The translations under genes were made by a program, and so were the position numbers. Shown piece by piece: positions 1 through 23,433 of a stretch of DNA of 32,000 bases (positions are counted from its first letter, which is position 1; each line of letters opens with the position of its first letter). Source of the DNA: Deinococcus radiodurans R1 = ATCC 13939 = DSM 20539 (GTDB lineage: Bacteria; Deinococcota; Deinococci; Deinococcales; Deinococcaceae); assembly GCF_000008565.1 (NCBI RefSeq), contig NC_001263.1, forward strand, positions 541,213 through 573,212, written 5' to 3'. A model generated the notes under the pieces. The model had not been told where the DNA came from. It worked only from the letters and a program-made list of their open reading frames with translations, and did no database searches.

Positions 1-226
1 TGCGTTGCACGGGTGACAGGAGCTGAGGCCGCACCGAAAGCGGCGCACGCCGGACAGCAGCGACGACTAGCTCCTGGGCCTTGCGGTACTTCACCTGATC
101 CCAGCCCGCTTGCCCCACCGCCAGAATACCGCCGATGAAAAAAATCAGGACAAAAATCAGGTTCAGCGTCAGGTCACTGAAAGCGATGTAAGGGTTGGTG
201 TCGCCCCGAAGACGCGACGTGCTCAT
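1..226 (-). CDS. MotB/ExbD/ZorB-like stator subunit, N-terminal fragment (gene continues beyond the left edge)
   Basis: Open at the window edge, so absent from the ORF track. The reverse complement of 1-226 reads ATG(226-224) MSTSRLRGDTNPYIAFSDLTLNLIFVLIFFIGGILAVGQAGWDQVKYRKAQELVVAAVRRAPLSVRPQLLSPVQR with no stop. GGAGG (236-232) lies 5 nt upstream of the ATG. A short basic N-terminus is followed by an Asp (FSDL) at the mouth of a single TM helix, which is the MotB-type layout. It starts 24 nt after the stop of the MotA-like gene. Confidence 0.6.
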   Translation of the reverse strand, partial: MSTSRLRGDTNPYIAFSDLTLNLIFVLIFFIGGILAVGQAGWDQVKYRKAQELVVAAVRRAPLSVRPQLLSPVQR

Positions 227-250
227 CCTTCCCTCCAGGCACGGCGGCGC

Positions 251-1486
251 TCAATCCCCACTTTGTACCTCGGCGCGCGAGCGGCTCAGGGCGCGGGACA
301 ATTCGCTGAAGGAGTGATCGAGACGTGCGGCGTAATTGCTCTGCTCGGTGCGGAAGGTCTGGCCCGACTCTTCAAAGCTGTTACTTGCCCGGCCCAGTTG
401 ATCGCCGACACGGGTGATCTGCTTGAGCAGTTCGGACGTGGTGGCCTGCACCGTGTCCTGGAGGCGACTGACCGTCGTCGCTTGCTGAGCGAGGTTCTGC
501 TGCAACTCCGTGCTGCTCGTGCGCAGGGACGAGGCGGCGCTTTCCTGAGCCTGCACCAGGTCCGACACGCCGCGACTCAGGCCCACAGTGAGTTCCTTGA
601 CAGACGTGTCCATCTGCCCGAAAACTTGCTCAATCTGTACACTGGTGTCCGAGAGTTGCGTCAGGCTCTGGCCCAGAGTGTCGCCCGCCTTGCCGAGCAC
701 GCTTTCGAGTTGGACCGCCACGTCTTGCAGCCTCTTGTGAATGTCCTGAAAGCTATTGCCCGCGTCGCGCAGGTAGCGGCCCATGCGCTCCATTTGCGAA
801 GTGATGGCGCGGGGGAAGGTGGCTGGGACAAGTTCGGCGTGTACAAAGGCGTTGAGTTCGTCCTCAAAGGTTTCCTGCGCGCGGGCGGCCAGCGCAAAGG
901 CTACCCCGGTGCCCAGGCTTAGCAGGATGCCCCACAGACTTGCCCCAAACGCCCCCTGCATGACACTCATGGTGCTGGCAAGGGCGTCGGCAAGTTCTCC
1001 CGGCTCTGTGGCCCGCGCGGCGTTGCGGATCGGAGTCACGAGGGTTCCGATTGACCCGGCGAGGCCCATCACCGTGCCCAGCAAACCAGCGAGCATCAGC
1101 AGGTTGGGAATGTTGCGCGCCGACGAGAGGCCAGCTTGTGCGGCGGCGCCCACGGCCTGCGTCGCCGCCTGCAAGTCCGGCGTGGCAAGAGTCCGGGCGC
1201 GGGTCACAGCCACCACCGCTTGCCGCACGGCGCTGGTGGCGGGCAAGGCCTGCGCGGCACGCCAGGCGTCCTCAGCCACTTCGTCGGATTCTGGCGGGTC
1301 CTCGGTGTCTAGGGCAGGCAAGACTACCTGGCGGATTTGTTCTAGAAAGCTCCGTTCCTGTTGGCGCCGCTGACGAGCCACGGCCAGGGCCCGCATGAAG
1401 TAAAGAGTAAGCGGCAACATGACGGCGAGCAGGACCAGCCAGCCTTCGGGCCTCAACTGAAAGAGGGTATTCAGAAATTCACTCAT
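251..1486 (-). CDS. MotA/TolQ/ExbB-family channel subunit with a ~210-aa C-terminal helical/coiled-coil tail (ZorA-like architecture)
   Basis: 411-aa ORF. TM1 is GWLVLLAVMLPLTLYFMRALAV. The hallmark MotA/ExbB core is NIPNLLMLAGLLGTVMGLAGSIG (compare the LGLLGTV.G motif of TolQ/ExbB), followed by ADALASTMSVMQGAFGASLWGILLSLGTGVAFALAA. Residues ~205-411 are Ser/Thr/Gln/Leu-rich with heptad-like periodicity. Only 3 nt separate it from the upstream gene's stop. Confidence 0.8.
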   Translation of the reverse strand: MSEFLNTLFQLRPEGWLVLLAVMLPLTLYFMRALAVARQRRQQERSFLEQIRQVVLPALDTEDPPESDEVAEDAWRAAQALPATSAVRQAVVAVTRARTLATPDLQAATQAVGAAAQAGLSSARNIPNLLMLAGLLGTVMGLAGSIGTLVTPIRNAARATEPGELADALASTMSVMQGAFGASLWGILLSLGTGVAFALAARAQETFEDELNAFVHAELVPATFPRAITSQMERMGRYLRDAGNSFQDIHKRLQDVAVQLESVLGKAGDTLGQSLTQLSDTSVQIEQVFGQMDTSVKELTVGLSRGVSDLVQAQESAASSLRTSSTELQQNLAQQATTVSRLQDTVQATTSELLKQITRVGDQLGRASNSFEESGQTFRTEQSNYAARLDHSFSELSRALSRSRAEVQSGD

Positions 1487-1489
1487 GGT

Positions 1490-4400
1490 TTACCCGAACA
1501 CGCTGTAGCGTTGGCCGAAGGGATGCTCAACGTCATCAGGGTGGTATTCGCACTTCAGGCCCTGGCCGATGACGTCCTCGAAGGTTTCGCCCACTGGGCC
1601 ACCACAGACCCGGCAGTAGTACCCCTGAGTGTTGGCAACGCGGCCTTTGGGCAGCCGTTCTCCCTTGTCCTTGTACAGGCCGTCAATGAGGTTGTTATCG
1701 GGCGGAAATGTCTCCAGCAGGGCCTGTCTCAGGTCAGCATCCTGCGTCAGGTACGCCATCAGGGCCGTCTGGGCTGCCTGATCGCTCCAGTCCCGAACAG
1801 CGCGGGCGCTGCTGCTGCTCATATTGTCGTGTAGCCATTTGACGTAAGCCTGCCTTCCCTCGGCGGGCGTGGGGTAACGGCCCACGATGGCTTTGCGCCG
1901 TGCCTCTATCTCGCTACGCAGGTACGTCGCGGCATTTGTGAGGCTCTTGGAGGGCCGCGAGCTGTCCTGCGGCTCAAAGGCCAGTTGCCGCGCGGCCTTG
2001 CCGAAGCTGCCCGCAAAGCGCCGCGCCCGCTTTTCCGGTTCAGTGGGTTCGCCGGGCTGCTGTGGCCACTCCATGACCAGGTGCCCGCCCGTCAGTTGCA
2101 GGTTGCCGTGGAGAGCTGAAAGGAAGACCAACTGCTCTGCTTCCTGGAGCTTGCGAATTTCCGCGTCGTTGATGGGTGTCCAGTCAATGTCGCTGCGTTT
2201 GCGGGTAAAGTAGGTGTTGAAGCGGGTGGGCTTGCTGTACGACAGTTCACGCACGTCGTCTGCACCGCGCAGAGCAAAGCGGTACCACTCCTCGAGCATC
2301 ACGACGCGGTAAGGATCGATGCCCTCGGTTTCCTTTGCCTCGGGGGACTTGTTCACCCACGGCTGGATAGCGCGGCGGAAGTCGGGAGTCATGTGCATGC
2401 CGACCAGCAGCTTGCGGCGCGGCAAAGGGCTCATGGGGTCCACCTGACCGAGGGGCTCATTGAGCTGCAAGAACAGCTCGGCCTGGGTGGCGGCGTGCAT
2501 GGCCTGACTGTCCGGATCGAAGCTCGGGCTGCGCTGCTCGTAAAGGCGGCGAATCACGTCCTTACCACTGCTGCGTAGGCTGCTCTCGAACGGTTCTACA
2601 GCGGCCTGTTCCAGTGCGTTGAGCTGCGCCCGCTCGAAGTTGTCCTGGCCGACGGCCCAGGCTCCCAGCAACCAGTCGGGGTCGTTGACGCCTGGCAAGA
2701 CGCCCTTGACCAGTGCGTCCCAGGAGCGGATCAGGCGTGCCGCGTGGGCCTCGCGCTGCTTGTCACTGACCGCCAGTTCCTGCTCCTTGTCCACCGAGCC
2801 ATTCGGAGAAGGCTCGAACAAAGACAGACCGTTGACGCTGGCTGAGTCGTTTTCCAGACGGGCACGGGTATCGCGCCAGCGGTCGGCCTGGTTGGTCAGG
2901 CGGCGGCGCAGCATGGTCAGGCGCCGGGTCAGCTTCTCGGCTTCCTCCTCGACGATGCTGAGTGTGCCGGCCTCGGTCTTCTGGCCGCTGCCCCGGTCGG
3001 CAAAGACCTCGCGGACCTTTTGATTGACGCGTGACTTGATCTCGTCGTCCAGAGCGCGGCTTAGGGCGGGATACAGTTGCTGCGACGCCTTGCCTTTCAG
3101 GAAGAACATGCCGAGCAAGGTGTTGGTCCGGATGGTGTCGAGCTCATCCAGCACGCCGTTCGCCGCGCCTGACTTGCCCTCGCTGGGTTCCCAGCCACGC
3201 AGTTCGCCCACGCGGGGCTGCACTCCCTGCATAACCTCCAGCAAGACGTTGGGGCCTTGGTCATAGTCGAGCAGGCGGCTGCTCACTAGGCCGCGCACGT
3301 TCTCCATGACGCGTTCAGCCGCCACGCGGCGGTTGTCGTTAACGGTGCGGTGAACCAGGCCGCGCAGACCCTCGCCGGTGTCCCGGTCAAAGGCACTCCG
3401 CAGGTCTTTCACAGCGTCGCGTGCGCCCTGTACGTTGCCATTACGCACAGCACGCATCACTTCGTTCTTCTTGGCGTCCAGGCTGGCACGGACACTCGCG
3501 CCGGAGGCGTCCAGCAACAGGGATTCGGTCAGGTTAGGGATGGTCAGCCCCATGGTGTCCAGGTCCTCTTCGAGCCGGCCCTCGTACTTGCGGTCTTTCC
3601 AGCGGTCGACGGCGTGCACCAGCGTCCGGTATTTCAGCGCTTCCAGGATGCGCCGCATCGGGTACTCAATGGTGGATAGACCAAAGGTGGAGAAGGCGAA
3701 GGCGCGGCCCTGTTGCACGGTCACGGGGCCAGCGTTCACCATGTAGGCCATCGGGTCGGTCTCCGGCACAAATACGTTCAGGAACATGCGGTCGGCAATG
3801 GCATTGGACAGGCGCAGCAGATCCATCGTCTCCGTACTGTTCGGGCGTAGCAGGTAGACGAGGTCATAGGGCATGGCGTCCCCCGGCAAGATGGCCGTTC
3901 CCTCGGGTTTATCGGGGTACTTGATGCTCTGGTAGCGCTCGCGGTCGTTGTGCAGGTGGTACTGGTTCAGTTCGGCGAGGGCGTGATAGGCGTTCGTTTT
4001 CCAGATTTCCGCGTCGGGTTTTTGGGCGATCCCCAGGTCAGGATGCGGCAGGGTAAACATCCCCAGCGTCTTCTCTTCCTCACTCAGGATGGTGCGCAGC
4101 AAAATGCCTACATCACTGGCGGTGCCGCTACAGGTTCCGCCGCAGAGCGTGCCCACGACGATGACACGGACCCCGGTCTGTCCGCTGGCCTGGTTCACCG
4201 CAAACTGCACGGACATTTCCAGGCCGGCATTGTCCTTGTTGAGTGCGGCTTTGGCCTGCGCTTCAGTCAGGTTCCGCAGCCGTGCCACTCGTTGCGAAAT
4301 GGCATTCTTGATCTCATTGTAGTTGGGCGGATAAAGCAGAGCGAGCCGCCCCACCATACGGATATGACCTGCGCCGGAGTCAATGCTCTGAGCGGGCAAT

Positions 4401-4702
4401 TGCCCCAGCGTTTCCAGGTCTGCCCAGGTGTTCAGGGCGATGCTGGCGTCGTACAGCTCAGGGCGATTGAGCATGTCCCGCCACGCCGTAGCTGGCACCC
4501 CGAGCGTCTTGAAATCGTCCGTGCCGTTGAAACGGTTGGGCTTCGCCACGTCCGTCTCCACCGCCAGAAACTCCACCCACGGGGCGCGGCTGAGGCCTCC
4601 GACTTCCCAATCGATTCGGTCTGCCAGAGATTCCAGAATTTCCGTCCCGGTGCTGCCCAACCCGATGACGAGAGTTTTAAAGACGCGCATGTTTTCTGCC
4701 AT
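1490..4702 (-). CDS. Giant tubulin/FtsZ-superfamily GTPase-like protein (1070 aa) with a long helical C-terminal region and a terminal Cys/His knuckle
   Basis: The N-terminal ~350 aa carry three loops in canonical order. T1-like: LVIGLGSTGTE (res 11-21; FtsZ GxGGGGxN). T3-like: DSGAGHIRMVGR (res 108-119; FtsZ GLGAGxNPxxGR). T4 signature-like: VVGTLCGGTCSGTASD (res 182-197; FtsZ/tubulin GGGTGxG). The C-terminus ends in YYCRVCGGPVG...LKCEYHPDD. The ATG overlaps the upstream TAA (TAATG at 4700-4704). Confidence 0.85.
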   Translation of the reverse strand: MAENMRVFKTLVIGLGSTGTEILESLADRIDWEVGGLSRAPWVEFLAVETDVAKPNRFNGTDDFKTLGVPATAWRDMLNRPELYDASIALNTWADLETLGQLPAQSIDSGAGHIRMVGRLALLYPPNYNEIKNAISQRVARLRNLTEAQAKAALNKDNAGLEMSVQFAVNQASGQTGVRVIVVGTLCGGTCSGTASDVGILLRTILSEEEKTLGMFTLPHPDLGIAQKPDAEIWKTNAYHALAELNQYHLHNDRERYQSIKYPDKPEGTAILPGDAMPYDLVYLLRPNSTETMDLLRLSNAIADRMFLNVFVPETDPMAYMVNAGPVTVQQGRAFAFSTFGLSTIEYPMRRILEALKYRTLVHAVDRWKDRKYEGRLEEDLDTMGLTIPNLTESLLLDASGASVRASLDAKKNEVMRAVRNGNVQGARDAVKDLRSAFDRDTGEGLRGLVHRTVNDNRRVAAERVMENVRGLVSSRLLDYDQGPNVLLEVMQGVQPRVGELRGWEPSEGKSGAANGVLDELDTIRTNTLLGMFFLKGKASQQLYPALSRALDDEIKSRVNQKVREVFADRGSGQKTEAGTLSIVEEEAEKLTRRLTMLRRRLTNQADRWRDTRARLENDSASVNGLSLFEPSPNGSVDKEQELAVSDKQREAHAARLIRSWDALVKGVLPGVNDPDWLLGAWAVGQDNFERAQLNALEQAAVEPFESSLRSSGKDVIRRLYEQRSPSFDPDSQAMHAATQAELFLQLNEPLGQVDPMSPLPRRKLLVGMHMTPDFRRAIQPWVNKSPEAKETEGIDPYRVVMLEEWYRFALRGADDVRELSYSKPTRFNTYFTRKRSDIDWTPINDAEIRKLQEAEQLVFLSALHGNLQLTGGHLVMEWPQQPGEPTEPEKRARRFAGSFGKAARQLAFEPQDSSRPSKSLTNAATYLRSEIEARRKAIVGRYPTPAEGRQAYVKWLHDNMSSSSARAVRDWSDQAAQTALMAYLTQDADLRQALLETFPPDNNLIDGLYKDKGERLPKGRVANTQGYYCRVCGGPVGETFEDVIGQGLKCEYHPDDVEHPFGQRYSVFG

Positions 4703-5031
4703 TAGGCTCGGGCTCCCATTTTTGAGAAGATGACGTGAAGGATGATGGCCAGCAGCAGGAAGGTCAGGGTCACTGCTCCCAGGTAGATCAGGTCGGTCGG
4801 TTTGAAGAGGAAATAAGCTCCGGCTGCCAGCGCTACGGCCAGCAACAGCAGGGCGATGTTCATGCCCTGATTGGCCGCATCAACCGCCGACCGATTGCCC
4901 GCACCGAAAAACACATGCGCGAACGCCACTGAAACCGCGTACCACAGCAGCACGGTGCCCAGAATGGTCAGCCAGAAGTTCATCTGGGTATAGAGAGGAA
5001 CAACTTGCTTGAAAATGTCGTTGAAATCCAT
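4702..5031 (-). CDS. Small 3-TM membrane protein (109 aa), function unknown
   Basis: Three hydrophobic helices: FWLTILGTVLLWYAVSVAFAHVFF, MNIALLLLAVALAAGAYFLF and LIYLGAVTLTFLLLAIILHVIF. The start overlaps the upstream stop (TGATG at 5029-5033) and the stop overlaps the downstream start. Confidence 0.7.
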   Translation of the reverse strand: MDFNDIFKQVVPLYTQMNFWLTILGTVLLWYAVSVAFAHVFFGAGNRSAVDAANQGMNIALLLLAVALAAGAYFLFKPTDLIYLGAVTLTFLLLAIILHVIFSKMGARA

Positions 5032-6350
5032 CAGTGGTCTCCCTGCTGATAAGAAAGGGTGAGAGAGCGTGTGATTTCACGCGGCACGCCGCCCGCGCCG
5101 CGCACCTCGCCGGTCAGTTCAAGTTGATGGTCAGGCTGATCGAGGCGCAGGGGAAAAGAAGCCGCGTTTCCCACCGCCACACGGCCATCGACGCTGCTCA
5201 GCGTGACGGCTTCACTCGTGCCGCGCACCTTAAGGTCCTTGCCGACCCGGACGAGTTCGGCAATCCGTTCGGCTGGAAGGCCCTGCACCGGCACGACCGC
5301 TACCCCTTCCTCGCTGTAGCCAGGGCCAGCAATCACGCAGAAGGGCCTGCCGTTGGGCATATCGCGGAGGCTGAAGTTCGAATCTCCAACGCGCAGGCTG
5401 CCCCGCGCTCCACCTTGCCCGCCGCCCTTGATGAGCATCCAAACCAAGCCTCCGATCAGCCCAAGCCCCAGCAGGCCCAGAAGAAAGGGAGCAGCGGAGC
5501 CGTTCTTCTTTTCTGCTTTGACCGGCTGAGCACTCTGGTCAAGTTGCTGTGTACGGGTGGTGTTGCCCAGAGGAGTGGCCGTAAACGTCTTGGGCAGCAA
5601 CACGACGGCTTGCATCTGCCCCGGTACGGCGCCGCCGGGTGTTTTGATGGTGTAGGGAATATTCAGGGTGGCGCCGTCCTGCGTCCCAGCGACCCGCGTC
5701 CATGTCTCCAGCATCTTCTGATAACTCCCAGCATTGGTGCCGAGCAGCTTCGTACCTGCTGAGCCGACGCTGGCTGCCGTATTGGTCAGCAGAATCAAAA
5801 CGGTATCTGGTGAATTCGCGAATTCCTTCGTGAACGATACAGCGGCCCTTTCCGTATCGTGCCCTCCCGCGCTCCCTACTGCGGGCGTGGTGGGCCACAA
5901 CCGCTCCACACCGCCTTTATCGGCCTGACTGTCTGTGCCGATCTGCTGGGTAAGCCCCTGGGCATTCCTAAACGCCCAGGGCTTGAGTTCCCAGGCGCGT
6001 GCTGTCACCTGGTCGCCGGTCATTGCTTCACGTGCAATGAACTGCGAGGCCACTTCCCGTGCCGCCTGTGCGCCCAGCGGATCAGACTTGAAGTGCCCAG
6101 TGCTGAACGCCATTACCCAATGGACGTTTTGCTTATCCAAGTCGCCGCCCGCCGCTGTGACAGCCTCATTCACACTGCTCAATAAGCGGTCAACTCCTGG
6201 CTTGAGGCTAGAGCGCATCAATTCGGTTTTACCTCTGACATCTTGCGCCTGCACTGTGCTTGAGAGCATCAAGGCCGCTGTCAGCCAACCAATAAGGGGT
6301 AAGTCTGGGCTTCTGAAATGAGGTCTAAGGGAACGTGAAGTTTTGTACAT
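5031..6350 (-). CDS. Bitopic membrane protein: signal peptide, ~290-aa extracytoplasmic domain, one TM helix, ~125-aa cytoplasmic domain; function unknown
   Basis: The ORF extends to 6467. The Met at 6350 gives MYKTSRSLRPHFRSPDLPLIGWLTAALMLSSTVQA/QD, which looks like a signal peptide. Alternative starts are 6395 and 6467. TM helix AAPFLLGLLGLGLIGGLVWMLIKG lies at nt ~5427-5495. It is the first gene of the operon. Confidence 0.7.
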   Translation of the reverse strand: MYKTSRSLRPHFRSPDLPLIGWLTAALMLSSTVQAQDVRGKTELMRSSLKPGVDRLLSSVNEAVTAAGGDLDKQNVHWVMAFSTGHFKSDPLGAQAAREVASQFIAREAMTGDQVTARAWELKPWAFRNAQGLTQQIGTDSQADKGGVERLWPTTPAVGSAGGHDTERAAVSFTKEFANSPDTVLILLTNTAASVGSAGTKLLGTNAGSYQKMLETWTRVAGTQDGATLNIPYTIKTPGGAVPGQMQAVVLLPKTFTATPLGNTTRTQQLDQSAQPVKAEKKNGSAAPFLLGLLGLGLIGGLVWMLIKGGGQGGARGSLRVGDSNFSLRDMPNGRPFCVIAGPGYSEEGVAVVPVQGLPAERIAELVRVGKDLKVRGTSEAVTLSSVDGRVAVGNAASFPLRLDQPDHQLELTGEVRGAGGVPREITRSLTLSYQQGDH

Positions 6351-6419
6351 AAGAATGATGTAACCTCGCTTAACCGAAGCATACGACCTTCTCATGACAC
6401 TGCTGTCACATTGTTGGGC

Positions 6420-6447
6420 TTTATAGGTGGAGGCAAGGGAAAAGTAA
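6420..6447 (-). promoter_or_regulatory. Candidate sigma70-type promoter of the tubulin-like/MotAB-like operon
   Basis: The minus strand reads TTACTT (6447-6442), a 16-nt spacer, then TATAAA (6425-6420). It sits in a locally AT-rich stretch between the DUF72 terminator and the first operon gene. Pattern match only. Confidence 0.3.
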
Positions 6448-6525
6448 GGACCAATGTGACGTTTCACTTGTGGTCCCTAAACAGGGTAGGCTGCCCGCAC
6501 GTGCTGATAGTTCGACTGCTAACTA

Positions 6526-6560
6526 AACGAAAAATCCCTTGCCTGCGGGCGGGGATTTGT
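6526..6560 (-). terminator. Rho-independent terminator downstream of the DUF72 gene
   Basis: The minus strand reads AAATCCCCGCCCGCAGGCAAGGGATTTTTCGTTT. A 7-bp stem (AAATCCC/GGGATTT) is followed by a T-run, immediately after the DUF72 stop at 6561. Confidence 0.6.
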
Positions 6561-8921: not shown

Positions 8922-9689
8922 ATGATTTCGGCGATGATGCTCGCGGTCATTGGCGTGGGACTGCTCGCCGGGGTGCTGGGCGCGATTCTGGGTCTGGGCG
9001 GCGGCGTGGTGGTGGTCCCGGCGCTGGAATTCGTGTTGCCGCGCTTTGGGCATGACATCACCATCAGTCAGGCGGTAGCAGTGTCACAAATCGGCGTGCT
9101 GGCCGTGGGCCTGAGCGGTGCCGCCGCCTACTTGCAGCAGGGTTTGGTTCGCGCTCGCACCGGCTACCTGCTCTCCCCCTACACCATTATTGGCGGGGCA
9201 GTAGGCAGTTTCCTGGGCCTCGTGCTGCCTGCCCGCGCAGTAGCGACCGTGTTCGCGTTACTGCTCTTTTACTCCGCTTACAACCTGTTGCGTGGTCTCA
9301 AGCGGGTCGAGGTCGAACGCGAGCCGTCGAAGTTGGTGCCTCCCGCCATGACTTTCGCGGGCGTCATGAGCGGCCTGCTCGGGATCGGCGGCGGCACGGT
9401 GCAGGTGCCGGTGCTTAACCTGATGCAGGGGATGCCGATCCGGCAGGCCATCGCCACCTCGACCTTCATTATGGGTCTCACCGCCGTAGGGAACGCATTG
9501 GTCTATCAAGCGGGCGGCCTCCTCGATGTGAAACTCGCTGCTGGAGTTGCTCTGGGCGTCCTTATCGGTGCCAAAGCCGGAGCGAGTCTGCAAAGCCGTA
9601 TCCCCGCCGCACAACTCAAGCTCTTTTTCAGCTTGCTGCTGATCTTTACTGCCGGGCAACTCCTCTGGAAGTATTGGGGGCACGCATGA
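8922..9689 (+). CDS. TauE/SafE (TSUP, DUF81) family anion exporter membrane protein
   Basis: Polytopic protein with duplicated halves. The typical [22 protein letters not shown] motif recurs as [19 protein letters not shown] lies upstream of the ATG. Confidence 0.85.
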
Positions 9690-9961
9690 CCGGGCCTGAG
9701 CGCACGCCGGACACCGAACTCGCTGGGCTGCCCAGTTGGCTGTATCCGGCTGGTTTCTGGGTCGCCGTGGTTTTGCTCGCTGTAGGCGTCCTCTTTCCTG
9801 ATTTCGCGGTTTTGGGTGTGGCCTGGGTGGGTCTGGTGCCGGTGCTCGCGGCCCTGTGGGTTTTGGTCACGGGCTGGCAAAGAGACCGCCGCCTGGGGAT
9901 GGCGGCGGCGCTGGCGCTGGCGGGGTTGGGGTTGGTGGTGGTAGTCAAGGGATTTCTCTAA
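9686..9961 (+). CDS. Small hypothetical membrane protein (~91 aa)
   Basis: The ATG at 9686 overlaps the TauE stop (ATGA). There are 2-3 hydrophobic helices ([46 protein letters not shown]) and GC-rich third codon positions. No recognisable family. Confidence 0.5.
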
Positions 9962-10322
9962 AGCCACCCTGATCGTAGGTAAAGGTCTTGCCACTTTGTG
10001 AAAGAGCACTAATGGTATAAGCAGTGCCACTGCTGGTAACCGTAACTTGTGATTGTTTGACCGATGCCGGCTTGCTCTGCGCATTGACACCCAGTGCTGG
10101 ATCCTCACAACTGGTTGGTGGGGGACTTGGCAAAACTCCTAGATCGTCTCGTGAGATTTCAAGCGCTGAGGCGCAATGGCGAAGGTAGGATGTCGTGGCG
10201 CTGTCATAAGCTTTACTTCTGGCGCCCGCGAGGCTAGGTACAAGCACAGAGATGAGAATGGCGATTATCGTCATCACTACGAGAAGCTCGATCAGTGTGA
10301 ATGCCTCAGTGGCCTTTTGCAT
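9945..10322 (-). CDS. Type IV pilin-like protein (paralog of the pilin at 11916-12392) with an atypical Ala at the -1 cleavage position
   Basis: MQKATEA/FTLIELLVVMTIIAILISVLVP is a class III (prepilin) leader plus hydrophobic helix. AAGGAG lies 9 nt upstream of the ATG at 10322; the ORF track extends to 10358. It shares ARxKAxDSATxSYxRxC and KTFxxD motifs with the downstream pilin. Confidence 0.75.
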   Translation of the reverse strand: MQKATEAFTLIELLVVMTIIAILISVLVPSLAGARSKAYDSATTSYLRHCASALEISRDDLGVLPSPPPTSCEDPALGVNAQSKPASVKQSQVTVTSSGTAYTISALSQSGKTFTYDQGGFREIP

Positions 10323-10436
10323 CAAGTGCAGCTCCTTTACCTTGGAACTGTAAAACATCTGTGAGAGAGAATGGGTTTCCCAACGGACTTCCAGAGCTTC
10401 TGTCTTTAGTGAGGCGAGTGACAGTTAAGATTGACG

Positions 10437-11873
10437 ATGATGAGTCTGGCTCAGCAAGATGCGAATACTTTTCGCCTGGCATGGTTTGCCCGGGCCTGGG
10501 CCATAGCGGTCTGGTTACATCTGGCTGCTGAGCCCAGGGGTGCGTGGGCGACGCAACCGCCACTAGCCGTCCTCTCTGTGCTACTAGCCTTGGCAGCGGC
10601 AAGAGCGTTTCTCGCGCCGCGTGATAGACGTGCTGTGCTGGCCTTGTGTGTCTTACTCCCTTTGCATGCCTGGGCTGAGGCACCCGTAGTGGGCAACCAC
10701 TGGGTACTCGCTGCCCTTGTGAGTTTGAGTTTTTGTCTGGACGCAGTTCGCCGTTTTCTTTTGCCTTCTTCCTCCTTCATGCCTGGAGAGCTTGTGCGGA
10801 GTGCCCGGCTGACTCTGCTGATCGCCTATGCGTTCGCCGCATTTGCCAAGCTGAACTGGGATTTCCTGAACCCGGCTGTCAGTTGCGCGGTCTTTTATCA
10901 GGATCAACTTGTTCGGTCCTGGAACCTGCCAGATCTCAGCGTTGCTTCTGTGCCTGTATTGGGCCGGTCCTTGGCTGTATTGACTGTCGTGATTGAGTTG
11001 GCGGTGGCAAGCTTACTAGCATTTTCCCGCACGCGGCGCTTCGGGCTGGTGCTGGCGTTTGGCTTTCACTGGATGCTGGCCCTGGATCTGGAGCAGCACT
11101 TCTGGGACTTTTCCTCTGTCCTATTTGCTGGATTTCTCCTCTTTCTGGACGATGGGCAAGTGGCCTGGCTGCGTCAGCAGTTCGGAGCGTGGCCTAAGTG
11201 GCGACCCAGGCCTTTTTTTCTGCCCCTCCTGATCGGATGCTTGGGTGCGGCAATAGCCGTCCTTAACATCTTGCCGCTGGAGTTGGGCTCCGCCGCCACC
11301 TTGCAGCAATGGGGACATGTGGCTTGGTGGGGCTACGGAACCGCTTGGGTAGGTCTGATAGCAGCCAGCCTGTTTGCTCCCAAATTGCCCTCGCATCGCG
11401 CTTACGAACGGCACCGTGTTCCGGCGATACTCTTGGTGCCGCCCATTTTAGCTGCTTTCAACGGTTTAACTCCGTATCTGGAAATCAAGACAGGTTTCGG
11501 TTGGAACATGTACAGCAATCTCAAGACGGTGGCGGGTCAAACGAATCACCTGCTTTTGCCAGGAACCTGGGATTTAACGGGCGCCCAACGCGAGCTGGTA
11601 CAGATCGTGTCCTCCACCGACCCGGCCTTGCAGCGGCTTCATGACGAGGACTACGGCCTGACCTTCTCCGAATTCAAAAATTATGCCCACCGTTTTCCAA
11701 ACAGTGCCGTGACCTACCGCTGGCAGGAACGGGTTCACCACGCCCCCCGTCTGGGGGACGACCCGGTAGTGCAGGGGTCGGTCAATGTGGCAGCTCAGAA
11801 ACTCATCTCCTTCCGGGCAGTGGACTTGCAGGCGGCGCAGCGTTGCCAGCCGAATTTCAGCCCGGCCCGCTAA
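10437..11873 (+). CDS. Polytopic membrane protein, possibly HTTM (vitamin-K-carboxylase-like) domain family
   Basis: About 10 hydrophobic segments. N-terminal FRLAWFARAWAIAVWLH and GNHWVLAALVSLSF resemble HTTM-domain motifs, but that is a weak assignment from memory. There is a soluble C-terminal ~130 aa. Start could be TTG 10431 or ATG 10437/10440. Confidence 0.65.
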   Translation: MMSLAQQDANTFRLAWFARAWAIAVWLHLAAEPRGAWATQPPLAVLSVLLALAAARAFLAPRDRRAVLALCVLLPLHAWAEAPVVGNHWVLAALVSLSFCLDAVRRFLLPSSSFMPGELVRSARLTLLIAYAFAAFAKLNWDFLNPAVSCAVFYQDQLVRSWNLPDLSVASVPVLGRSLAVLTVVIELAVASLLAFSRTRRFGLVLAFGFHWMLALDLEQHFWDFSSVLFAGFLLFLDDGQVAWLRQQFGAWPKWRPRPFFLPLLIGCLGAAIAVLNILPLELGSAATLQQWGHVAWWGYGTAWVGLIAASLFAPKLPSHRAYERHRVPAILLVPPILAAFNGLTPYLEIKTGFGWNMYSNLKTVAGQTNHLLLPGTWDLTGAQRELVQIVSSTDPALQRLHDEDYGLTFSEFKNYAHRFPNSAVTYRWQERVHHAPRLGDDPVVQGSVNVAAQKLISFRAVDLQAAQRCQPNFSPAR

Positions 11874-11900
11874 AACAAAACCGCCCCGGAGGGCGGTTCT
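11872..11900. terminator. Bidirectional rho-independent terminator between convergent genes
   Basis: AAAACAAAA-CCGCCC-CGGA-GGGCGG-TTCT. A 6-bp GC stem and tetraloop are followed by TTTTGTTTT on the minus strand (strong for the pilin gene) and TTCT on the plus strand. Confidence 0.7.
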
Positions 11901-11915
11901 GAGAAGAGGTGGGGA

Positions 11916-12392
11916 TTAGTTGCTGCCGGTACCAGTGCCGGTGCCAGTGCCGGTACCAGTGCCGGTACCAGTGCCGGTGCCGGTGCTGGTGCTGAAGGTG
12001 CAGGCACCAGTAGCGCCAGTGCCTTCGCCCATCTTCGCGCCGTCGAAGCAGAAGGTCTTGTTGGTCACGCTGGTGGCAGTAACGGCAAACTTGCTACCAG
12101 TACCATCCAGGCTGTAAGCGCCTGCCGCAGTGATTGCACCAGGGGTAGCCACAGCGTTGGTACCCAGGTTGGCCGTGCTGTCGCAGTTGCCAGCAGCAGG
12201 CAGGCGGCCGTCAGCACCACGGGCCACTTCCACGGCGGTGTAGCAGTTGCGGATGTAGCTCTGGGTGGCGCTGTCGTTGGCCTTGGCGCGGGCGCCCAGC
12301 AGGTTGGGGATCAACACGGCGGCCAGGATGCCGATGATGGCGATGACGATGAGCAGTTCGATCAGGGTGAAGCCTTGGGTGGTGTTCTTCAT
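11916..12392 (-). CDS. pilA: Type IVa pilin (158 aa) with a C-terminal (Thr-Gly)10 tail
   Basis: MKNTTQG/FTLIELLIVIAIIGILAAVLIPNLL is a canonical prepilin leader with the G-F cleavage site, Glu5 and a hydrophobic helix. AGGAGA lies 6 nt upstream of the ATG at 12392. The ORF track's 337-aa version is an upstream in-frame read-through. There are two Cys pairs. The terminator is at 11872-11900. Confidence 0.9.
   Translation of the reverse strand: MKNTTQGFTLIELLIVIAIIGILAAVLIPNLLGARAKANDSATQSYIRNCYTAVEVARGADGRLPAAGNCDSTANLGTNAVATPGAITAAGAYSLDGTGSKFAVTATSVTNKTFCFDGAKMGEGTGATGACTFSTSTGTGTGTGTGTGTGTGTGTGSN
11925..11984 (-). repeat. Imperfect 6/12-nt tandem repeat (ACC/ACT GGC/GGT)x10 encoding the (TG)10 pilin tail
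   Basis: Read directly. The minus strand reads ACC GGC ACC GGC ACT GGT ACC GGC ACT GGT ACC GGC ACT GGC ACC GGC ACT GGT ACC GGC, then AGC AAC TAA. Confidence 0.9.
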
Positions 12393-12825
12393 GGTGAATC
12401 TCCTGTGGTTCGGCGCGGCGGATAAGGTATGTATGGTCCCGCGTTGCCTACTTATGGCATTGGCAGTGACGGGGATTCCCGCTCCTGCTTGGCCGTAGAG
12501 TAATCGGAAGTTTCTAACATTTCTCTTACGCGGCTTGACGTTGCCTTGAGTCGGACCCCAGCGAAAGTTTTGGCCGGCTGGACGCGCTTGAGCCTTTTGG
12601 GAAAGTACGGTACAGGTTCTGTCAGACGGTGAGGCCGCGGCCAAGGCCCGGGCCAGGGTGCTATGCTGCCGGGCAGTTCGGCCCGCCTTCGCCCCCGGCG
12701 AGGAGCAGGCGAATAGAGACGCTGCTTCAGGCAGAGTCTCCCAAACCATTTCACTTCCTCCCTGGCGTTGCGGCCCCCTTTGCCGGGCCTGCTCGCCGCC
12801 TTGTCCGGGAAAGGGGCCAACCGCC

Positions 12826-14172
12826 TTGGAAACGACTCCGCGTGTGCCGCCGCACAGCAACGACGCTGAAATCAGCGTGCTGGGCAGTGTGCTGCTCGAC
12901 AACGACACCCTCGCCGCTCTGGGCGACACCGTGACCCCCGAAATGTTTTACCGCGAGGGCCACCGCAAGATTTTTGCTGCCATGCGCCAGCTTCAGGACC
13001 ACCGCGAGCCGGTCGACCTCGTGACTCTGTCCGAGCACCTGCGCGTTGCGGGCGAACTCGACAACGTGGGCGGCAACGCTTACCTCATCGGCCTATCCGA
13101 GCAGGTGCCCACCGCCGCTTACGCCGAGCACTACGCCCGCATCGTGCAGGAGAAGCACACCCTGCGCCAGCTGATTCAGGCGTCGGGCAAGGCGATGCAG
13201 CTCGCCTATGAGCAGCAACTTCCGCTCGAAGACCTGCTCGATAAGGCCGAGAAGATGATTTTCGAGGTCGCCGAGCAGAAGAAAAAGGGCGAGGCGTTCC
13301 AGGCGATGAACGAGGTCGTCTCCGACACTTTCGAGTACATCACCCTGCTGCACGCCAACAAGGGGATTCCTGACGGCGTGAGCAGTGGCTTTCGCGACCT
13401 CGACGAGCAGATTTCGGGCTTGCAGAAGGGCAGTCTGAACGTGCTGGCGGCTCGCCCGAGCATGGGGAAAACTGCCTTCGCCCTTTCTATAGCCCAGAAC
13501 GTCGCCTTGCGCGGCGAAAAGACCGTTGCGGTGTTCAGTCTGGAAATGCCCGCCGTGCAGCTTGCTCTGCGTATGTTGTGCAGCGAAGCGCGGGTGGATA
13601 TGAACCGCATCCGCAGCGGGCACCTCAACGAGCGCGATTTCGAGCGGCTGGCGCACGCGGCGGGGCGGCTCGCCGAGGCACCGATGGTCATCGATGACGA
13701 ACCCGACCTCACGCTCAACGCCCTGCGCTCCAAGCTCCGGCGGATTGCCGCGCAGCACGGGCAGCTCGGTCTAGTCGTTATCGACTATCTGCAACTGATG
13801 TCGGGCGGCAAGTCCTCGGGCGGGTCGGACAACCGCCAGCAGGAAATCAGCACCATCTCGCGCGGCCTCAAGGGGCTGGCGCGTGAGCTGGAAGTGCCCA
13901 TTGTGGTTCTCAGCCAGCTCAGCCGCGCGGTCGAGCAGCGGCCCAACCACCGGCCCATGCTCTCGGACCTGCGCGAGTCGGGCGCCATCGAACAGGACGC
14001 CGATATCGTGATGTTCATCTACCGCGACGAGTACTACAACAAAGAAACCGACCAGCAAGGCATCGCTGAAATCATCATCGGCAAGCAGCGCAACGGCCCG
14101 GTCGGCACGGTCAAATTGCAGTTTCACAGCGCCCATGTCCGTTTCAACGACCTGGCGCCGGAGGGGATGTGA
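12826..14172 (+). CDS. dnaB: Replicative DNA helicase DnaB
   Basis: N-terminal PPHSNDAEISVLGSVLLDND, Walker A ARPSMGKTAFAL, and further DnaB motifs (IDYLQLM, SRGLKGLARELEVPIVVLSQLSR, SDLRESGAIEQDADIV, IIGKQRNGPVG). The start is uncertain. TTG 12826, preceded by GGGAAAGGGG, gives 448 aa. The track's GTG 12658 adds an implausible Cys/Pro/Arg-rich extension. Confidence 0.9.
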   Translation: METTPRVPPHSNDAEISVLGSVLLDNDTLAALGDTVTPEMFYREGHRKIFAAMRQLQDHREPVDLVTLSEHLRVAGELDNVGGNAYLIGLSEQVPTAAYAEHYARIVQEKHTLRQLIQASGKAMQLAYEQQLPLEDLLDKAEKMIFEVAEQKKKGEAFQAMNEVVSDTFEYITLLHANKGIPDGVSSGFRDLDEQISGLQKGSLNVLAARPSMGKTAFALSIAQNVALRGEKTVAVFSLEMPAVQLALRMLCSEARVDMNRIRSGHLNERDFERLAHAAGRLAEAPMVIDDEPDLTLNALRSKLRRIAAQHGQLGLVVIDYLQLMSGGKSSGGSDNRQQEISTISRGLKGLARELEVPIVVLSQLSRAVEQRPNHRPMLSDLRESGAIEQDADIVMFIYRDEYYNKETDQQGIAEIIIGKQRNGPVGTVKLQFHSAHVRFNDLAPEGM

Positions 14173-23175: not shown

Positions 23176-23250
<75 letters not shown>

Positions 23251-23253
23251 GAG

Positions 23254-23290
23254 AAACCACTGTCTACGGGCGGTGGTTCTTTTTTGTTTC
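23254..23290 (+). terminator. Possible terminator after tRNA-Ala
   Basis: The AACCAC/GTGGTT stem (23255-23260 and 23273-23278) has a 12-nt loop and is followed by CTTTTTTGTTT. Confidence 0.45.
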
Positions 23291-23324
23291 GGCGGAGACT
23301 TTTGTGTCACAAGACAGCACAGAA

Positions 23325-23356
23325 ATAAAAAGCCCCCGGCGTTCACCGGGGTTTTC
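23325..23356 (-). terminator. Rho-independent terminator after tRNA-Val
   Basis: The minus strand reads CCCCGG-TGAACG-CCGGGG followed by CTTTTTATTT. On the plus strand the stem spans 23334-23351. Confidence 0.6.
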
Positions 23357-23358
23357 TC

Positions 23359-23433
23359 TGGTGGGCGATGAGGGATTTGAACCCCCGACCAATCGCTTGT
23401 AAGGCGAGCGCTCTACCGCTGAGCTAATCGCCC
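23359..23433 (-). tRNA. tRNA-Val (anticodon UAC)
   Basis: The reverse complement is GGGCGATTAGCTCAGCGGTAGAGCGCTCGCCTTACAAGCGATTGGTCGGGGGTTCAAATCCCTCATCGCCCACCA. Acceptor GGGCGAT/ATCGCCC, anticodon loop CTTACAA, T arm GGGGG-TTCAAAT-CCCTC, encoded CCA. There is one C27-U43 mismatch in the anticodon stem. Confidence 0.9.

What the first reader, a model, noticed from the sequence alone, without database searches (positions are those of the whole stretch)
1..6467. Tightly packed operon of at least five genes joining a giant tubulin/FtsZ-superfamily GTPase to a MotAB/ZorAB-like ion-channel stator: candidate undescribed membrane machine
Seen directly: five consecutive minus-strand genes with almost no intergenic space. 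The stop/start junctions are TGATG at 5029-5033, TAATG at 4700-4704, a 3-nt gap at 1487-1489, and a 24-nt gap with GGAGG before the last gene. The gene order is: (1) signal-peptide/TM bitopic protein, (2) 109-aa 3-TM protein, (3) 1070-aa protein with T1, T3 and T4 FtsZ/tubulin GTP-binding loops, (4) MotA/ExbB-type channel subunit with a ~210-aa helical tail, (5) MotB-like subunit with the Asp-before-TM hallmark, cut by the window edge. Established: MotAB/ExbBD/TolQR/ZorAB complexes convert ion flow into mechanical or signalling output. In Zorya anti-phage systems, a MotA homolog with a long tail couples envelope perturbation to cytoplasmic effectors. Inference: here the cytoplasmic partner is a polymerising-type GTPase rather than the nuclease/helicase-type Zorya effectors. 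That suggests a PMF-powered sensor or actuator that controls, or is localised by, a tubulin-like filament, for phage defence, envelope stress or membrane remodelling. Four hand-counted 60-nt samples inside the operon give 53-58% GC, versus 63-67% in DUF72 and dnaB samples, which is consistent with horizontal acquisition. Comparative-genomics work has described FtsZ-like families embedded in predicted membrane-remodelling operons. I cannot verify from memory whether this exact gene set was covered.
Basis: partly seen in the sequence, partly recalled or inferred. Interest (0 to 1): 0.9.

Follow-up and report, generated by a model that had tools for sequence, protein, structure and literature searches.

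The report
Tubulin-like GTPase operon with ion-motor
This is the Deinococcus radiodurans DR_0540–DR_0534 operon, which links a giant tubulin/FtsZ-like GTPase to a MotAB/ZorAB-type ion-driven membrane motor; a 2010 comparative-genomics paper already lists this exact locus, but nobody has shown what it does.

Summary
Five minus-strand genes are packed exactly as described, and the identical locus on D. radiodurans chromosome 1 shows two more operon genes beyond the window edge: an LRV-repeat protein and a membrane-spanning Ser/Thr kinase.

- **GTPase:** the 1070-aa protein matches Pfam Tubulin_2 (E=1.4e-73).
- **Motor:** the 411-aa protein has a MotA/ExbB/TolQ/ZorA fold, keeps the Thr and Ser ion-filter residues, and carries a roughly 200-aa helical tail. 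Its partner has the conserved Asp, one transmembrane helix and an OmpA domain.
- **First gene:** it most likely encodes a periplasmic vWA-like domain that lacks the metal-binding motif.
- **Conservation:** the core cassette is colinear in every relative with a full-length GTPase match and enough downstream sequence. It lies in unrelated genomic contexts and is plasmid-borne in four Deinococcus species.

It is not undescribed. Makarova & Koonin (2010) named the family FtsZl1, and their supplement lists DR_0540–DR_0534 with the MotA and OmpA labels. No experimental work was found.

My best reading, which is an inference, is a Zorya-like envelope-sensing 5:2 motor whose tail acts on the FtsZl1 GTPase. 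The GC argument for horizontal transfer is weak: 61.7% in the operon against 65.2% in the rest of the window.

The parts
1..226 (-). g5 (DR_0536), 5' part only. MotB/ZorB-type B subunit: N-terminal cytoplasmic stretch, Asp18 (codon 173-175), single transmembrane segment at residues 19-37. The full protein is 201 aa with a C-terminal OmpA-type peptidoglycan-binding domain beyond the window edge.
   Evidence: Reading of the sequence. Full-length protein at L002:11261-11863 matches Pfam OmpA at E=1.4e-20 and PADLOC ZorB1 at E=5.9e-7 over residues 9-155. The Asp in the 'NPYIAxxD' motif is kept in 13/13 homologues.
251..1486 (-). g4 (DR_0537), 411 aa. MotA/ExbB/TolQ/ZorA-type A subunit: three transmembrane segments, ion-filter residues Thr138 (1073-1075) and Ser183 (938-940), then an all-helical cytoplasmic tail of about 200 aa.
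   Evidence: Pfam MotA_ExbB is below threshold (E=0.4). A transmembrane-only profile has ZorA chains as its top four PDB hits, best E=0.008. Foldseek on the AF2 model (pLDDT 67.7) returns TolQ/ExbB/ZorA/PomA for its top 45 hits; the TolQ, ExbB and ZorA hits have probability 0.99-1.0 and the PomA hits 0.84-0.98. Thr138 is invariant and position 183 is Ser or Thr in 14/14 homologues. Tail length in homologues gives proteins of 407-900 aa.
1490..4702 (-). g3 (DR_0538), 1070 aa. FtsZl1-family tubulin/FtsZ-superfamily GTPase: T1 loop at 4646-4663, T3 at 4367-4375, T4 at 4124-4144. A central coiled-coil/helical region follows, then a conserved C-terminal CxxC...C...H motif (1493-1630).
   Evidence: Pfam Tubulin_2 E=1.4e-73, full model length. 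Invariant loop residues in 17 homologues. Coordinates verified. Listed as FtsZl1 in PMC2875224. Family size: 4431 representative clusters at E<=1e-3 and 407 at E<=1e-30.
4702..5031 (-). g2 (DR_0539), 109 aa. Small three-transmembrane protein, translationally coupled on both sides.
   Evidence: Three hydrophobic segments. A small multi-transmembrane ORF of about 80-190 aa sits between g1 and g3 in most related loci, and is absent in 6 of the 16 loci checked. No family match.
5031..6350 (-). g1 (DR_0540), 439 aa from the ATG at 6350 (478 aa if the GTG at 6467 is used). Signal peptide, periplasmic vWA-like alpha/beta domain with a degenerate MIDAS site (AFSTGH at 6093-6110; LLTNTAAS at 5769-5792), transmembrane helix (5430-5486), and a cytoplasmic beta-rich domain of about 125 aa.
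   Evidence: AF2 model pLDDT 81.6. Foldseek best hit is the CLCA1 VWA domain (probability 1.0, E=0.0095, 116 columns, rmsd 3.3). The C-terminal domain weakly resembles the FHA protein OdhI (probability 0.97). No Pfam match. It occupies the position that vWA genes hold in other FtsZl1 operons.
6351..6560 (-). Upstream non-coding region (49% GC) between the DUF72 gene and g1, presumed to hold the operon promoter. It contains a GC-rich hairpin followed by a T-run just after the DUF72 stop (6537-6554).
   Evidence: Composition. Hairpin reported on the + strand by the scan; the T-run on the minus strand was read directly. No sigma-70-like promoter was found, so the promoter is inferred only.

Best explanation
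**Identity (near-certain).** This is the FtsZl1 operon of Deinococcus radiodurans chromosome 1, DR_0540 to DR_0534. It is a seven-gene unit whose conserved core is vWA-like sensor, small transmembrane protein, FtsZl1 GTPase, MotA-like subunit, MotB-like subunit.

**Mechanism (inferred, not shown).**
1. DR_0537 and DR_0536 form a peptidoglycan-anchored, proton-driven 5:2 motor of the MotAB/ExbBD/ZorAB type. Its A subunits extend a helical tail into the cytoplasm.
2. As in Zorya, the motor is normally idle and switches on when the envelope is perturbed. The perturbation is sensed through the peptidoglycan-binding domain, perhaps together with the periplasmic vWA-like domain of DR_0540 and the receptor kinase DR_0534.
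3. The signal travels down the tail to the cytoplasmic partner. Here that partner is the 1070-aa FtsZl1 GTPase rather than a nuclease.
4. The GTPase then assembles or switches state at that membrane site. The outcome would be local membrane remodelling or repair, or abortive-infection-type defence.

The module behaves as an accessory, horizontally moving cassette rather than as housekeeping cytoskeleton.
For: **Identity.**
- The g4 protein is encoded identically on D. radiodurans chromosomes CP015081, CP031500 and CP150840.
- The locus is listed gene by gene in PMC2875224 Additional file 5.

**Motor.**
- The g4 fold matches TolQ/ExbB/ZorA/PomA in all of the top 45 PDB hits.
- The top four sequence-profile hits are ZorA chains.
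- That alignment places ZorA Thr147, Ser184 and Pro136 on g4 Thr138, Ser183 and Pro127. In ZorAB, Thr147 and Ser184 form the ion filter around ZorB Asp26 (PMC11946911). They are conserved in 14/14 g4 homologues, and the matching Asp18 in 13/13 g5 homologues.
- g5 has an OmpA domain (E=1.4e-20) and matches ZorB1 (E=5.9e-7).

**Functional linkage.**
- Start and stop codons overlap or lie 3-24 nt apart.
- g3-g4-g5 are colinear in every one of the 17 genome loci where the FtsZl1 match covers nearly the full protein and downstream sequence exists. The same holds for two Abditibacteria loci found by HMM and three metagenome loci. Together these span Deinococcota, an Actinomycetes MAG and Armatimonadota.

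**Accessory behaviour.**
- The cassette is plasmid-borne in four Deinococcus species, once interrupted by an IS630 element.
- No D. radiodurans flanking gene recurs beside the cassette in 26 other loci.
- Some copies sit next to defence genes: an McrBC-like pair, DISARM-like genes and a BrxHI/SngC-like helicase. A more distant vWA-FtsZl1 locus in Thermus oshimai, with no MotA/MotB-like genes annotated, sits next to BrxL.

**Kinase link.**
- Ser/Thr kinases recur in FtsZl1 operons and are fused to FtsZl1 in Planctomycetes.
- The g1 cytoplasmic domain is weakly FHA-like.
Against: - No step of the mechanism has been shown experimentally, and no functional paper was found.
- g4 fails the curated thresholds: Pfam MotA_ExbB 10.9 bits against 22.9, and NCBIfam ZorA_2 18.6 bits against 100.
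- g1, g2, g3 and g6 match no PADLOC defence model.
- No nuclease or other obvious toxic effector is encoded.
- Many copies are flanked by housekeeping genes, and the defence neighbourhood was not tested statistically.
- Whether FtsZl1 polymerises is unknown. The published analysis could not find the T6-H7 elements or the FtsZ/tubulin C-terminal domain.
- The g4 tail here is short, about 200 aa, compared with the E. coli ZorA tail of about 70 nm.
Confidence: 0.45

Rival explanations
1. Constitutive membrane-remodelling or vesicle-biogenesis machine, as Makarova & Koonin proposed in 2010. FtsZl1 forms a membrane-associated scaffold. The vWA, OmpA-like and membrane proteins anchor it to the envelope to shape or pinch membrane. 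No threat-sensing role is involved.
For: This is the published prediction for the family. Every core partner is membrane-bound or envelope-bound. FtsZ/tubulin relatives typically act by assembly at membranes. Several copies lie among housekeeping genes.
Against: The distribution is patchy and copies are plasmid-borne, which fits an accessory function better. The paper read the OmpA-like protein as a beta-barrel porin. Here it is a single-transmembrane MotB-type subunit with a conserved ion-binding Asp. That points to an energised and gated device rather than a passive anchor. No vesicle phenotype is known.
Confidence: 0.2
2. Outward force transduction. The 5:2 motor energises the periplasmic vWA-like protein DR_0540, as proposed for transmembrane-tethered vWA 'force transducers' of TolQR-like motors. 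It would pull on or stabilise the outer envelope or S-layer. FtsZl1 and the kinase would only position or regulate the motor.
For: A 2025 study proposes inner-membrane-tethered periplasmic vWA proteins as partners of TolQ/TolR-like motors (PMC12204202). g1 has a periplasmic vWA-like fold and one transmembrane helix. g1 co-occurs with the motor genes in every locus with a near-full-length FtsZl1 match where upstream sequence exists.
Against: The topology differs: g1 has the vWA domain N-terminal to its transmembrane helix, with a cytoplasmic C-terminal domain. The g1 helix has neither an SHLS motif nor an Asp (sequence). vWA genes also accompany FtsZl1 where no MotAB-like genes exist, so g1 tracks the GTPase, not the motor. 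The MIDAS site is lost.
Confidence: 0.15
3. The genes are neighbours without a shared function: an unrelated stator-like pair that happens to lie beside a tubulin-like gene.
For: None beyond the sub-threshold family scores for g4.
Against: Start and stop codons overlap or nearly touch. The same order is kept across phyla down to about 30% identity, in unrelated flanking contexts.
Confidence: 0.02

Closest known systems
FtsZl1-centred predicted 'membrane remodelling' operons (Makarova & Koonin 2010, Biol Direct 5:33, PMC2875224)
   Same: It is the same thing. DR_0538 is one of the sequences that defined FtsZl1, and DR_0540-DR_0534 is one of the tabulated neighbourhoods, with the MotA, OmpA, 'LLR' and kinase labels. 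The architecture matches the family description: N-terminal GTPase domain, coiled coil, helical C-terminal region.
   Different: The paper's text never treats the MotA-like and OmpA-like pair as an ion-driven stator, and it describes the OmpA-like family as beta-barrel proteins. DR_0540 is left as 'hypothetical'; here it models as a vWA-like domain without MIDAS. Function remains a prediction only.
Zorya anti-phage system, ZorAB core (Hu et al. 2025, Nature 639:1093, PMC11946911)
   Same: The A subunit has three transmembrane segments, the Thr/Ser ion filter and a long helical cytoplasmic tail. The B subunit has the essential Asp, one transmembrane helix and a peptidoglycan-binding domain. The pair is encoded beside soluble cytoplasmic partners. 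ZorA is the best PDB sequence match and ZorB1 the best PADLOC match.
   Different: Scores fall far below the ZorA family cut-offs. There is no ZorC/D, ZorE or ZorF/G. The tail is shorter, about 200 aa here. g5 has a linker of about 50 residues with a conserved helix after the transmembrane segment, which is more MotB-like, whereas ZorB's peptidoglycan-binding domain is fused directly. The partners are a tubulin-like GTPase, a vWA-like protein and a kinase. No anti-phage activity is known.
MotAB/PomAB flagellar stators and ExbBD/TolQR motors
   Same: The A subunit has the same fold, the Asp and Thr chemistry is conserved, and the B subunit has an OmpA-type domain like MotB (its best PDB hit is MotS, E=2.3e-5).
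   Different: There is no flagellar, TonB or TolA/Pal context. The A subunit carries a long coiled tail that those motors lack.
TerY-P type vWA + Ser/Thr kinase defence triads, and transmembrane-tethered vWA force transducers (PMC12204202)
   Same: A vWA-fold protein combined with a Ser/Thr kinase, or with a 5:2 motor (TerY-P is recalled from my own knowledge of Gao et al. 2020 and was not tested).
   Different: No PP2C phosphatase is present, the MIDAS site is lost, the topology differs, and a tubulin-like GTPase is present.

Membership tests
FtsZ/tubulin superfamily, FtsZl1 family (Pfam Tubulin_2, PF13809) | Significant full-length match to the family profile | tested here: met
   E=1.4e-73, 248.7 bits against a cut-off of 27; model positions 1-356 of 356 on residues 11-366.
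FtsZ/tubulin superfamily, FtsZl1 family (Pfam Tubulin_2, PF13809) | GTP-binding loops T1 (GxGxxG), T3 (GAG) and T4 (GGGTG[ST]G-like) | tested here: met
   GLGSTG, GAG and CGGTCSG; the Gly, Ser and Thr residues are invariant in 17 homologues down to 27% identity.
FtsZ/tubulin superfamily, FtsZl1 family (Pfam Tubulin_2, PF13809) | T7 catalytic loop and C-terminal domain that make the filament interface (polymerisation-dependent GTPase) | not tested
A profile search of PDB sequences found no FtsZ or tubulin. The 2010 paper could not identify T6-H7 or the C-terminal domain in FtsZl1.
FtsZ/tubulin superfamily, FtsZl1 family (Pfam Tubulin_2, PF13809) | GTP hydrolysis and filament formation | not testable with these tools
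   Needs biochemistry and electron microscopy.
FtsZl1 operon (Makarova & Koonin 2010) | FtsZl1 gene with vWA, OmpA-like, kinase and membrane-protein neighbours; this locus listed | tested here: met
   DR_0540-DR_0534 is tabulated in Additional file 5. OmpA, LRV and Pkinase domains confirmed. The vWA-like fold of g1 is supported only by a model.
MotA/ExbB/TolQ/ZorA (A subunit of 5:2 ion-driven motors) | Match to Pfam MotA_ExbB above the gathering score | tested here: not met
   10.9 bits against 22.9, E=0.4.
MotA/ExbB/TolQ/ZorA (A subunit of 5:2 ion-driven motors) | Fold of the transmembrane and membrane-proximal domain | tested here: met
   AF2 model pLDDT 67.7. The top 45 Foldseek PDB hits are all TolQ, ExbB, ZorA or PomA; the TolQ, ExbB and ZorA hits have probability 0.99-1.0 and the PomA hits 0.84-0.98. 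TM-score normalised to the target is up to 0.65, best E=9.7e-4. The top four sequence-profile hits are ZorA chains.
MotA/ExbB/TolQ/ZorA (A subunit of 5:2 ion-driven motors) | Conserved polar ring (TM2 Thr, TM3 Ser/Thr) facing the B-subunit Asp | tested here: met
   Thr138 is invariant and position 183 is Ser or Thr in 14/14 homologues. They align to ZorA Thr147 and Ser184.
MotA/ExbB/TolQ/ZorA (A subunit of 5:2 ion-driven motors) | 5:2 stoichiometry and ion-driven rotation | not testable with these tools
   No multimer prediction was available. Needs cryo-EM or AlphaFold-Multimer.
MotB/ExbD/TolR/ZorB (B subunit) | Single N-terminal transmembrane helix with a universally conserved Asp near its cytoplasmic end | tested here: met
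   Asp18 in 'NPYIAFSDLTLNLIFVLIFF'; Asp present in 13/13 homologues.
MotB/ExbD/TolR/ZorB (B subunit) | C-terminal OmpA-type peptidoglycan-binding domain (MotB/ZorB branch) | tested here: met
   Pfam OmpA E=1.4e-20, residues 91-188. Best PDB hit is the MotS peptidoglycan-binding domain.
Zorya anti-phage system | ZorA and ZorB recognised by curated models | tested here: not met
   NCBIfam ZorA_2 18.6 bits against a cut-off of 100. PADLOC ZorA1 E=8.4e-5, mostly over the coiled tail. PADLOC ZorB1 E=5.9e-7.
Zorya anti-phage system | Type-defining soluble partners (ZorC+ZorD, ZorE, or ZorF+ZorG) | tested here: not met
   No PADLOC match for g1, g2, g3 or g6. g7 matches only generic kinase models.
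Zorya anti-phage system | Protection against phage | not testable with these tools
   Needs phage challenge of deletion strains or heterologous hosts.
von Willebrand A domain (for g1) | Profile match and Rossmann-like vWA fold | tested here: inconclusive
   No Pfam or PDB sequence match. hhalign against a Thermus vWA neighbour found nothing. The AF2 model (pLDDT 81.6) hits VWA domains first in Foldseek (CLCA1, probability 1.0, E=0.0095), but only over 116 columns.
von Willebrand A domain (for g1) | MIDAS metal-binding motif DxSxS | tested here: not met
   The equivalent strand end reads A-F-S-T-G-H, and the 'TDG' position reads T-N-T. Both are conserved as such across homologues.

The most novel reading that the evidence does not exclude
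A proton-driven 5:2 rotary motor of the ZorAB type uses its rotating cytoplasmic tail to control the assembly or GTPase cycle of a tubulin-superfamily protein. This would be the first known coupling of an ion-driven rotary motor to a tubulin-like element. The result is a mobile envelope-surveillance module, for anti-phage defence or membrane repair, whose output is a GTPase scaffold rather than a nuclease. It would be tuned by a receptor Ser/Thr kinase and a MIDAS-less periplasmic vWA sensor.
Probability: 0.3. Interest if true: 0.85.

Novelty: already known. Interest (0 to 1): 0.5.

Why it matters
If the inferred mechanism is right, Zorya-like motors are a general signal-transduction chassis that can be wired to very different cytoplasmic outputs. 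It would also give the large, 15-year-old orphan FtsZl1 branch of the tubulin superfamily a testable function; the family has about 4,400 representative clusters.

The locus is in a genetically tractable organism, and it offers clean point-mutant tests: g5 D18N, g4 T138A/S183A, and the g3 T4 loop.

As it stands, the finding re-discovers a published but neglected computational prediction. What this analysis adds is the stator reading, the conserved ion-path residues, and the likely vWA identity of DR_0540.

Tried and rejected
- **Full-length g4 profile against PDB sequences.** The hits were swamped by coiled-coil proteins such as spike, haemagglutinin and designed bundles. I cut the profile to the transmembrane region, which then worked.
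- **g1 and g3 family profiles against PDB sequences.** Nothing useful came back.
- **hhalign of the g1 family against the vWA protein beside a Thermus oshimai tubulin-like gene.** No similarity. A single-sequence target is too weak for this test.
- **Structure prediction with homologues taken from loci.** I redid it with database homologues.
- **Promoter scan.** No sigma-70-like site was found.
- **Pfam on neighbours of distant FtsZl1 loci in Abditibacteria.** Uninformative. My guess that these loci carried BREX or Shango genes was wrong; the BrxHI/SngC-like helicase is in the D. radiomollis locus L021.
- **GC content as evidence of transfer.** Rejected as weak.
- **Flagellar or TonB/Tol role.** Considered and rejected, because none of those partner genes are present.
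- **Literature searches.** I searched for FtsZl1, Tubulin_2/PF13809, the DR_053x locus tags, and ZorA, ZorAB or Zorya together with tubulin or FtsZ. These found only the 2010 paper, a 2023 phylogeny that sets the family aside, and a STRING mention of DR0534.

Full report
**1. Where the window comes from**

The 411-aa product of the fourth gene is encoded identically on three complete Deinococcus radiodurans chromosome 1 records: CP015081, CP031500 and CP150840, each about 2.65 Mb. Those records let me read past the window's left edge. The five genes in the finding are DR_0540, DR_0539, DR_0538, DR_0537 and DR_0536.

**2. Checking the observation**

The ORF coordinates match the finding. I read every junction directly:
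- TGATG at 5029-5033 and TAATG at 4700-4704 are 1-nt stop/start overlaps.
- 'acc' separates g3 from g4.
- 24 nt containing GGAGGG precede the g5 ATG at 226.

There is no excess of terminator-like sites inside the operon. Hydropathy analysis gives one transmembrane segment plus a signal-like N-terminus for g1, three segments for g2, none for g3, three for g4 and one for g5.

Three corrections are needed.
- The operon has seven genes. After g5 (201 aa) come an LRV-repeat protein (864 aa, 3-nt gap) and a Ser/Thr kinase (700 aa, 32-nt overlap). A gap of about 400 nt follows.
- g1 probably starts at the ATG at 6350 (439 aa). Homologues do not have the first 40 residues of the 478-aa ORF.
- The GC difference is small: 61.7% for the operon against 65.2% for the rest of the window.

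**3. What each protein is**

*g3 (DR_0538).*
- It matches Pfam Tubulin_2 over the whole model at E=1.4e-73.
- The T1 (GLGSTG), T3 (GAG) and T4 (CGGTCSG) loops are invariant across 17 homologues down to 27% identity.
- A C-terminal CxxC...C...H motif is also conserved.
- I did not test whether it can polymerise.

*g4 (DR_0537).*
- It fails the Pfam MotA_ExbB threshold (E=0.4).
- It matches ZorA models only weakly, and mostly through its coiled tail.
- A profile limited to the transmembrane region ranks four ZorA chains first among 177,635 PDB sequences, followed by MotA and PomA.
- An AlphaFold2 model (pLDDT 67.7) finds only TolQ, ExbB, ZorA and PomA among its top 45 Foldseek hits.
- The profile alignment puts ZorA Thr147, Ser184 and Pro136 on g4 Thr138, Ser183 and Pro127. 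In ZorAB, Thr147 and Ser184 form the ion filter around ZorB Asp26, and the double mutant is dead (PMC11946911).
- Thr138 is invariant, and position 183 is Ser or Thr in all 14 homologues.
- The tail is all-helical. Homologues range from 407 to 900 aa, so tail length varies widely.

*g5 (DR_0536).*
- It has Asp18 just before its single transmembrane helix; the Asp is kept in 13/13 homologues.
- It has an OmpA domain at E=1.4e-20.
- It matches PADLOC ZorB1 at E=5.9e-7 across the transmembrane helix, linker and domain.
- A conserved amphipathic stretch right after the transmembrane helix may be a MotB-like plug. This is an inference from the alignment.

*g1 (DR_0540).*
- It has no family match.
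- Its model (pLDDT 81.6) hits VWA domains first: CLCA1 at probability 1.0 and E=0.0095, then a bacterial vWA protein and MDN1 MIDAS.
- Its cytoplasmic C-terminal domain weakly resembles FHA domains.
- The MIDAS motif is replaced by AFSTGH.
- It sits where canonical vWA genes sit in other FtsZl1 operons.

*g6 and g7.* g6 has nine or more LRV repeats. g7 is a kinase with a transmembrane helix near residues 311-329 and an extracytoplasmic domain of about 370 aa, which makes it a receptor-type kinase.

**4. Is the cassette conserved?**

A scan of one genome per species returned 26 loci.
- In all 17 loci where the GTPase matches DR_0538 over nearly its full length and downstream sequence exists, g4 and g5 follow in the same order.
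- g1 precedes the GTPase in every one of those loci that has upstream sequence.
- They come from Deinococcus, Meiothermus, an Actinomycetes MAG, Armatimonadota and an unclassified MAG.
- HMMs add two Abditibacteria loci that carry g3-g4-g5.
- Three metagenome loci show the same five-gene core with properly called genes.
- A small multi-transmembrane ORF like g2 is usual but missing in six of the 16 loci checked.
- The LRV gene and the kinase are restricted to closer relatives.
- Four distant loci, where only the N-terminal domain matches, lack the motor pair.
- The 2010 tables show the same trio in cyanobacteria: FtsZl1, a 'B7' membrane protein, and COG1360 'flagellar motor protein'.
- The GTPase family has 4,431 representative clusters at E<=1e-3 and 407 at E<=1e-30 among 1.84 billion.

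**5. Mobility and neighbourhood**

- The cassette is on plasmids in D. actinosclerus, D. deserti, D. sp. QL22 and D. radiophilus. The last copy is interrupted by an IS630 element.
- None of the D. radiodurans flanking genes appears near the cassette in the other 26 loci.
- In D. radiodurans the operon is followed by HTH_17 and PrimPol/DUF3987 genes, typical of an integrative element.
- Some copies adjoin defence genes:
  - an EVE-AAA_5 ATPase with a DUF2357/PD-(D/E)XK partner;
  - SNF2, DUF1156 and MZB helicase genes;
  - a BrxHI/SngC-like helicase.
- A more distant vWA-FtsZl1 locus on a Thermus oshimai plasmid, with no MotA/MotB-like genes annotated, adjoins BrxL.
- BrxD, SngB, PbeA, Cas6b and WYL also appear among 120 flanking ORFs.
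- Many flanks are housekeeping genes.
- I ran no statistical control, so the defence context is suggestive only.

**6. What was already known**

Makarova & Koonin (Biol Direct 2010, PMC2875224) defined FtsZl1, with D. radiodurans in their alignment figure. [quoted passage not shown]

Their Additional file 5 lists DR_0540..DR_0534 one by one. DR_0537 is 'MotA/TolQ/ExbB membrane protein', DR_0536 is 'OmpA family protein', DR_0535 is 'LLR' and DR_0534 is a kinase. So the gene set was covered.

The paper did not do the following:
- It never discusses a MotAB-type stator.
- It describes the OmpA-like family as beta-barrel membrane proteins.
- It leaves DR_0540 unassigned.

A 2023 phylogeny sets Tubulin_2 proteins aside as divergent. 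A 2026 preprint mentions DR0534 only through a STRING network. No search linked Zorya, ZorAB or MotA with this family.

**7. How it most likely works**

*Shown.* The core encodes a tubulin-superfamily GTPase, an A/B pair with the fold and ion-path residues of 5:2 motors, and a peptidoglycan-binding domain. These are tightly coupled and co-inherited.

*Inferred.*
1. The pair forms a peptidoglycan-anchored proton motor whose helical tail reaches the cytoplasm.
2. By analogy with Zorya, envelope perturbation activates it and the tail relays the signal.
3. The recipient is FtsZl1, which then assembles or switches state at the membrane.
4. The periplasmic vWA-like domain and the receptor kinase provide further input. 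The FHA-like g1 tail is a possible phospho-dependent link.

I put this at about 0.45. The rivals are a constitutive membrane-remodelling machine (0.2), outward force transduction through the vWA protein as proposed for other TolQR-like motors (PMC12204202; 0.15), and chance adjacency (0.02).

**8. Verdict**

The claim of an undescribed system is not right. The locus is a published, experimentally untouched member of the FtsZl1 operon class. It is not a Zorya system by membership, although it probably works like one at the membrane. Interest is moderate: the stator reading and the conserved ion-path residues turn an old prediction into direct experiments.

Noticed in passing
L002:16939-21236 (beyond the window's left edge, downstream of the kinase gene): About 400 nt after the operon lie a 276-aa ORF, an HTH_17 (excisionase-like) gene, a 206-aa ORF and a PrimPol/DUF3987 primase gene. 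These are typical of an integrative mobile element. No tRNA was found in that stretch.
   Followed up: partly
window 9500-12930: A low-GC stretch (54-58% GC, AT skew down to -0.35) holds two PilA4-type pilin genes (about 9945-10322 on the minus strand and 11916-12929 on the minus strand). Between them is a 480-aa ORF (10431-11873, plus strand) with only a weak HTTM-domain hit. dnaB follows at 12658-14172.
   Followed up: partly
window 5034-5410 (g1 C-terminal ~125 aa): The cytoplasmic domain of DR_0540 models as a beta-sandwich whose best non-vWA structural match is the FHA protein OdhI (probability 0.97, E=0.025). The canonical phosphothreonine-binding residues are not evident. It could link to the operon's Ser/Thr kinase.
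   Followed up: partly
window 1493-1630 (g3 C-terminus): A YYCxxCGG...C..H motif is conserved in homologues down to 27% identity, suggesting a zinc-ribbon-like module at the end of FtsZl1. It is not mentioned in the 2010 description.
   Followed up: no
L028:9977-13381 and L029:9992-13390 (Abditibacterium MAGs); L031, L032: These distant FtsZl1 homologues keep an upstream ORF of about 440 aa and a g2-like multi-transmembrane ORF, but have no MotA/MotB-like genes downstream. The GTPase module can therefore exist without the motor.
   Followed up: partly
H4, NZ_CP086382.1 96078-100362 (D. radiophilus plasmid): The FtsZl1 gene is split into two pieces by an IS630-family transposase, so the cassette is probably inactivated in that strain.
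   Followed up: no
window 23176-23433: A divergent pair of tRNA genes, tRNA-Ala(TGC) on the plus strand and tRNA-Val(TAC) on the minus strand, lies 108 nt apart.
   Followed up: no
window 6537-6554: A GC-rich hairpin followed on the minus strand by a T-run sits just after the DUF72 stop codon. It probably insulates the operon from upstream transcription. The 210-nt region before g1 is only 49% GC.
   Followed up: partly
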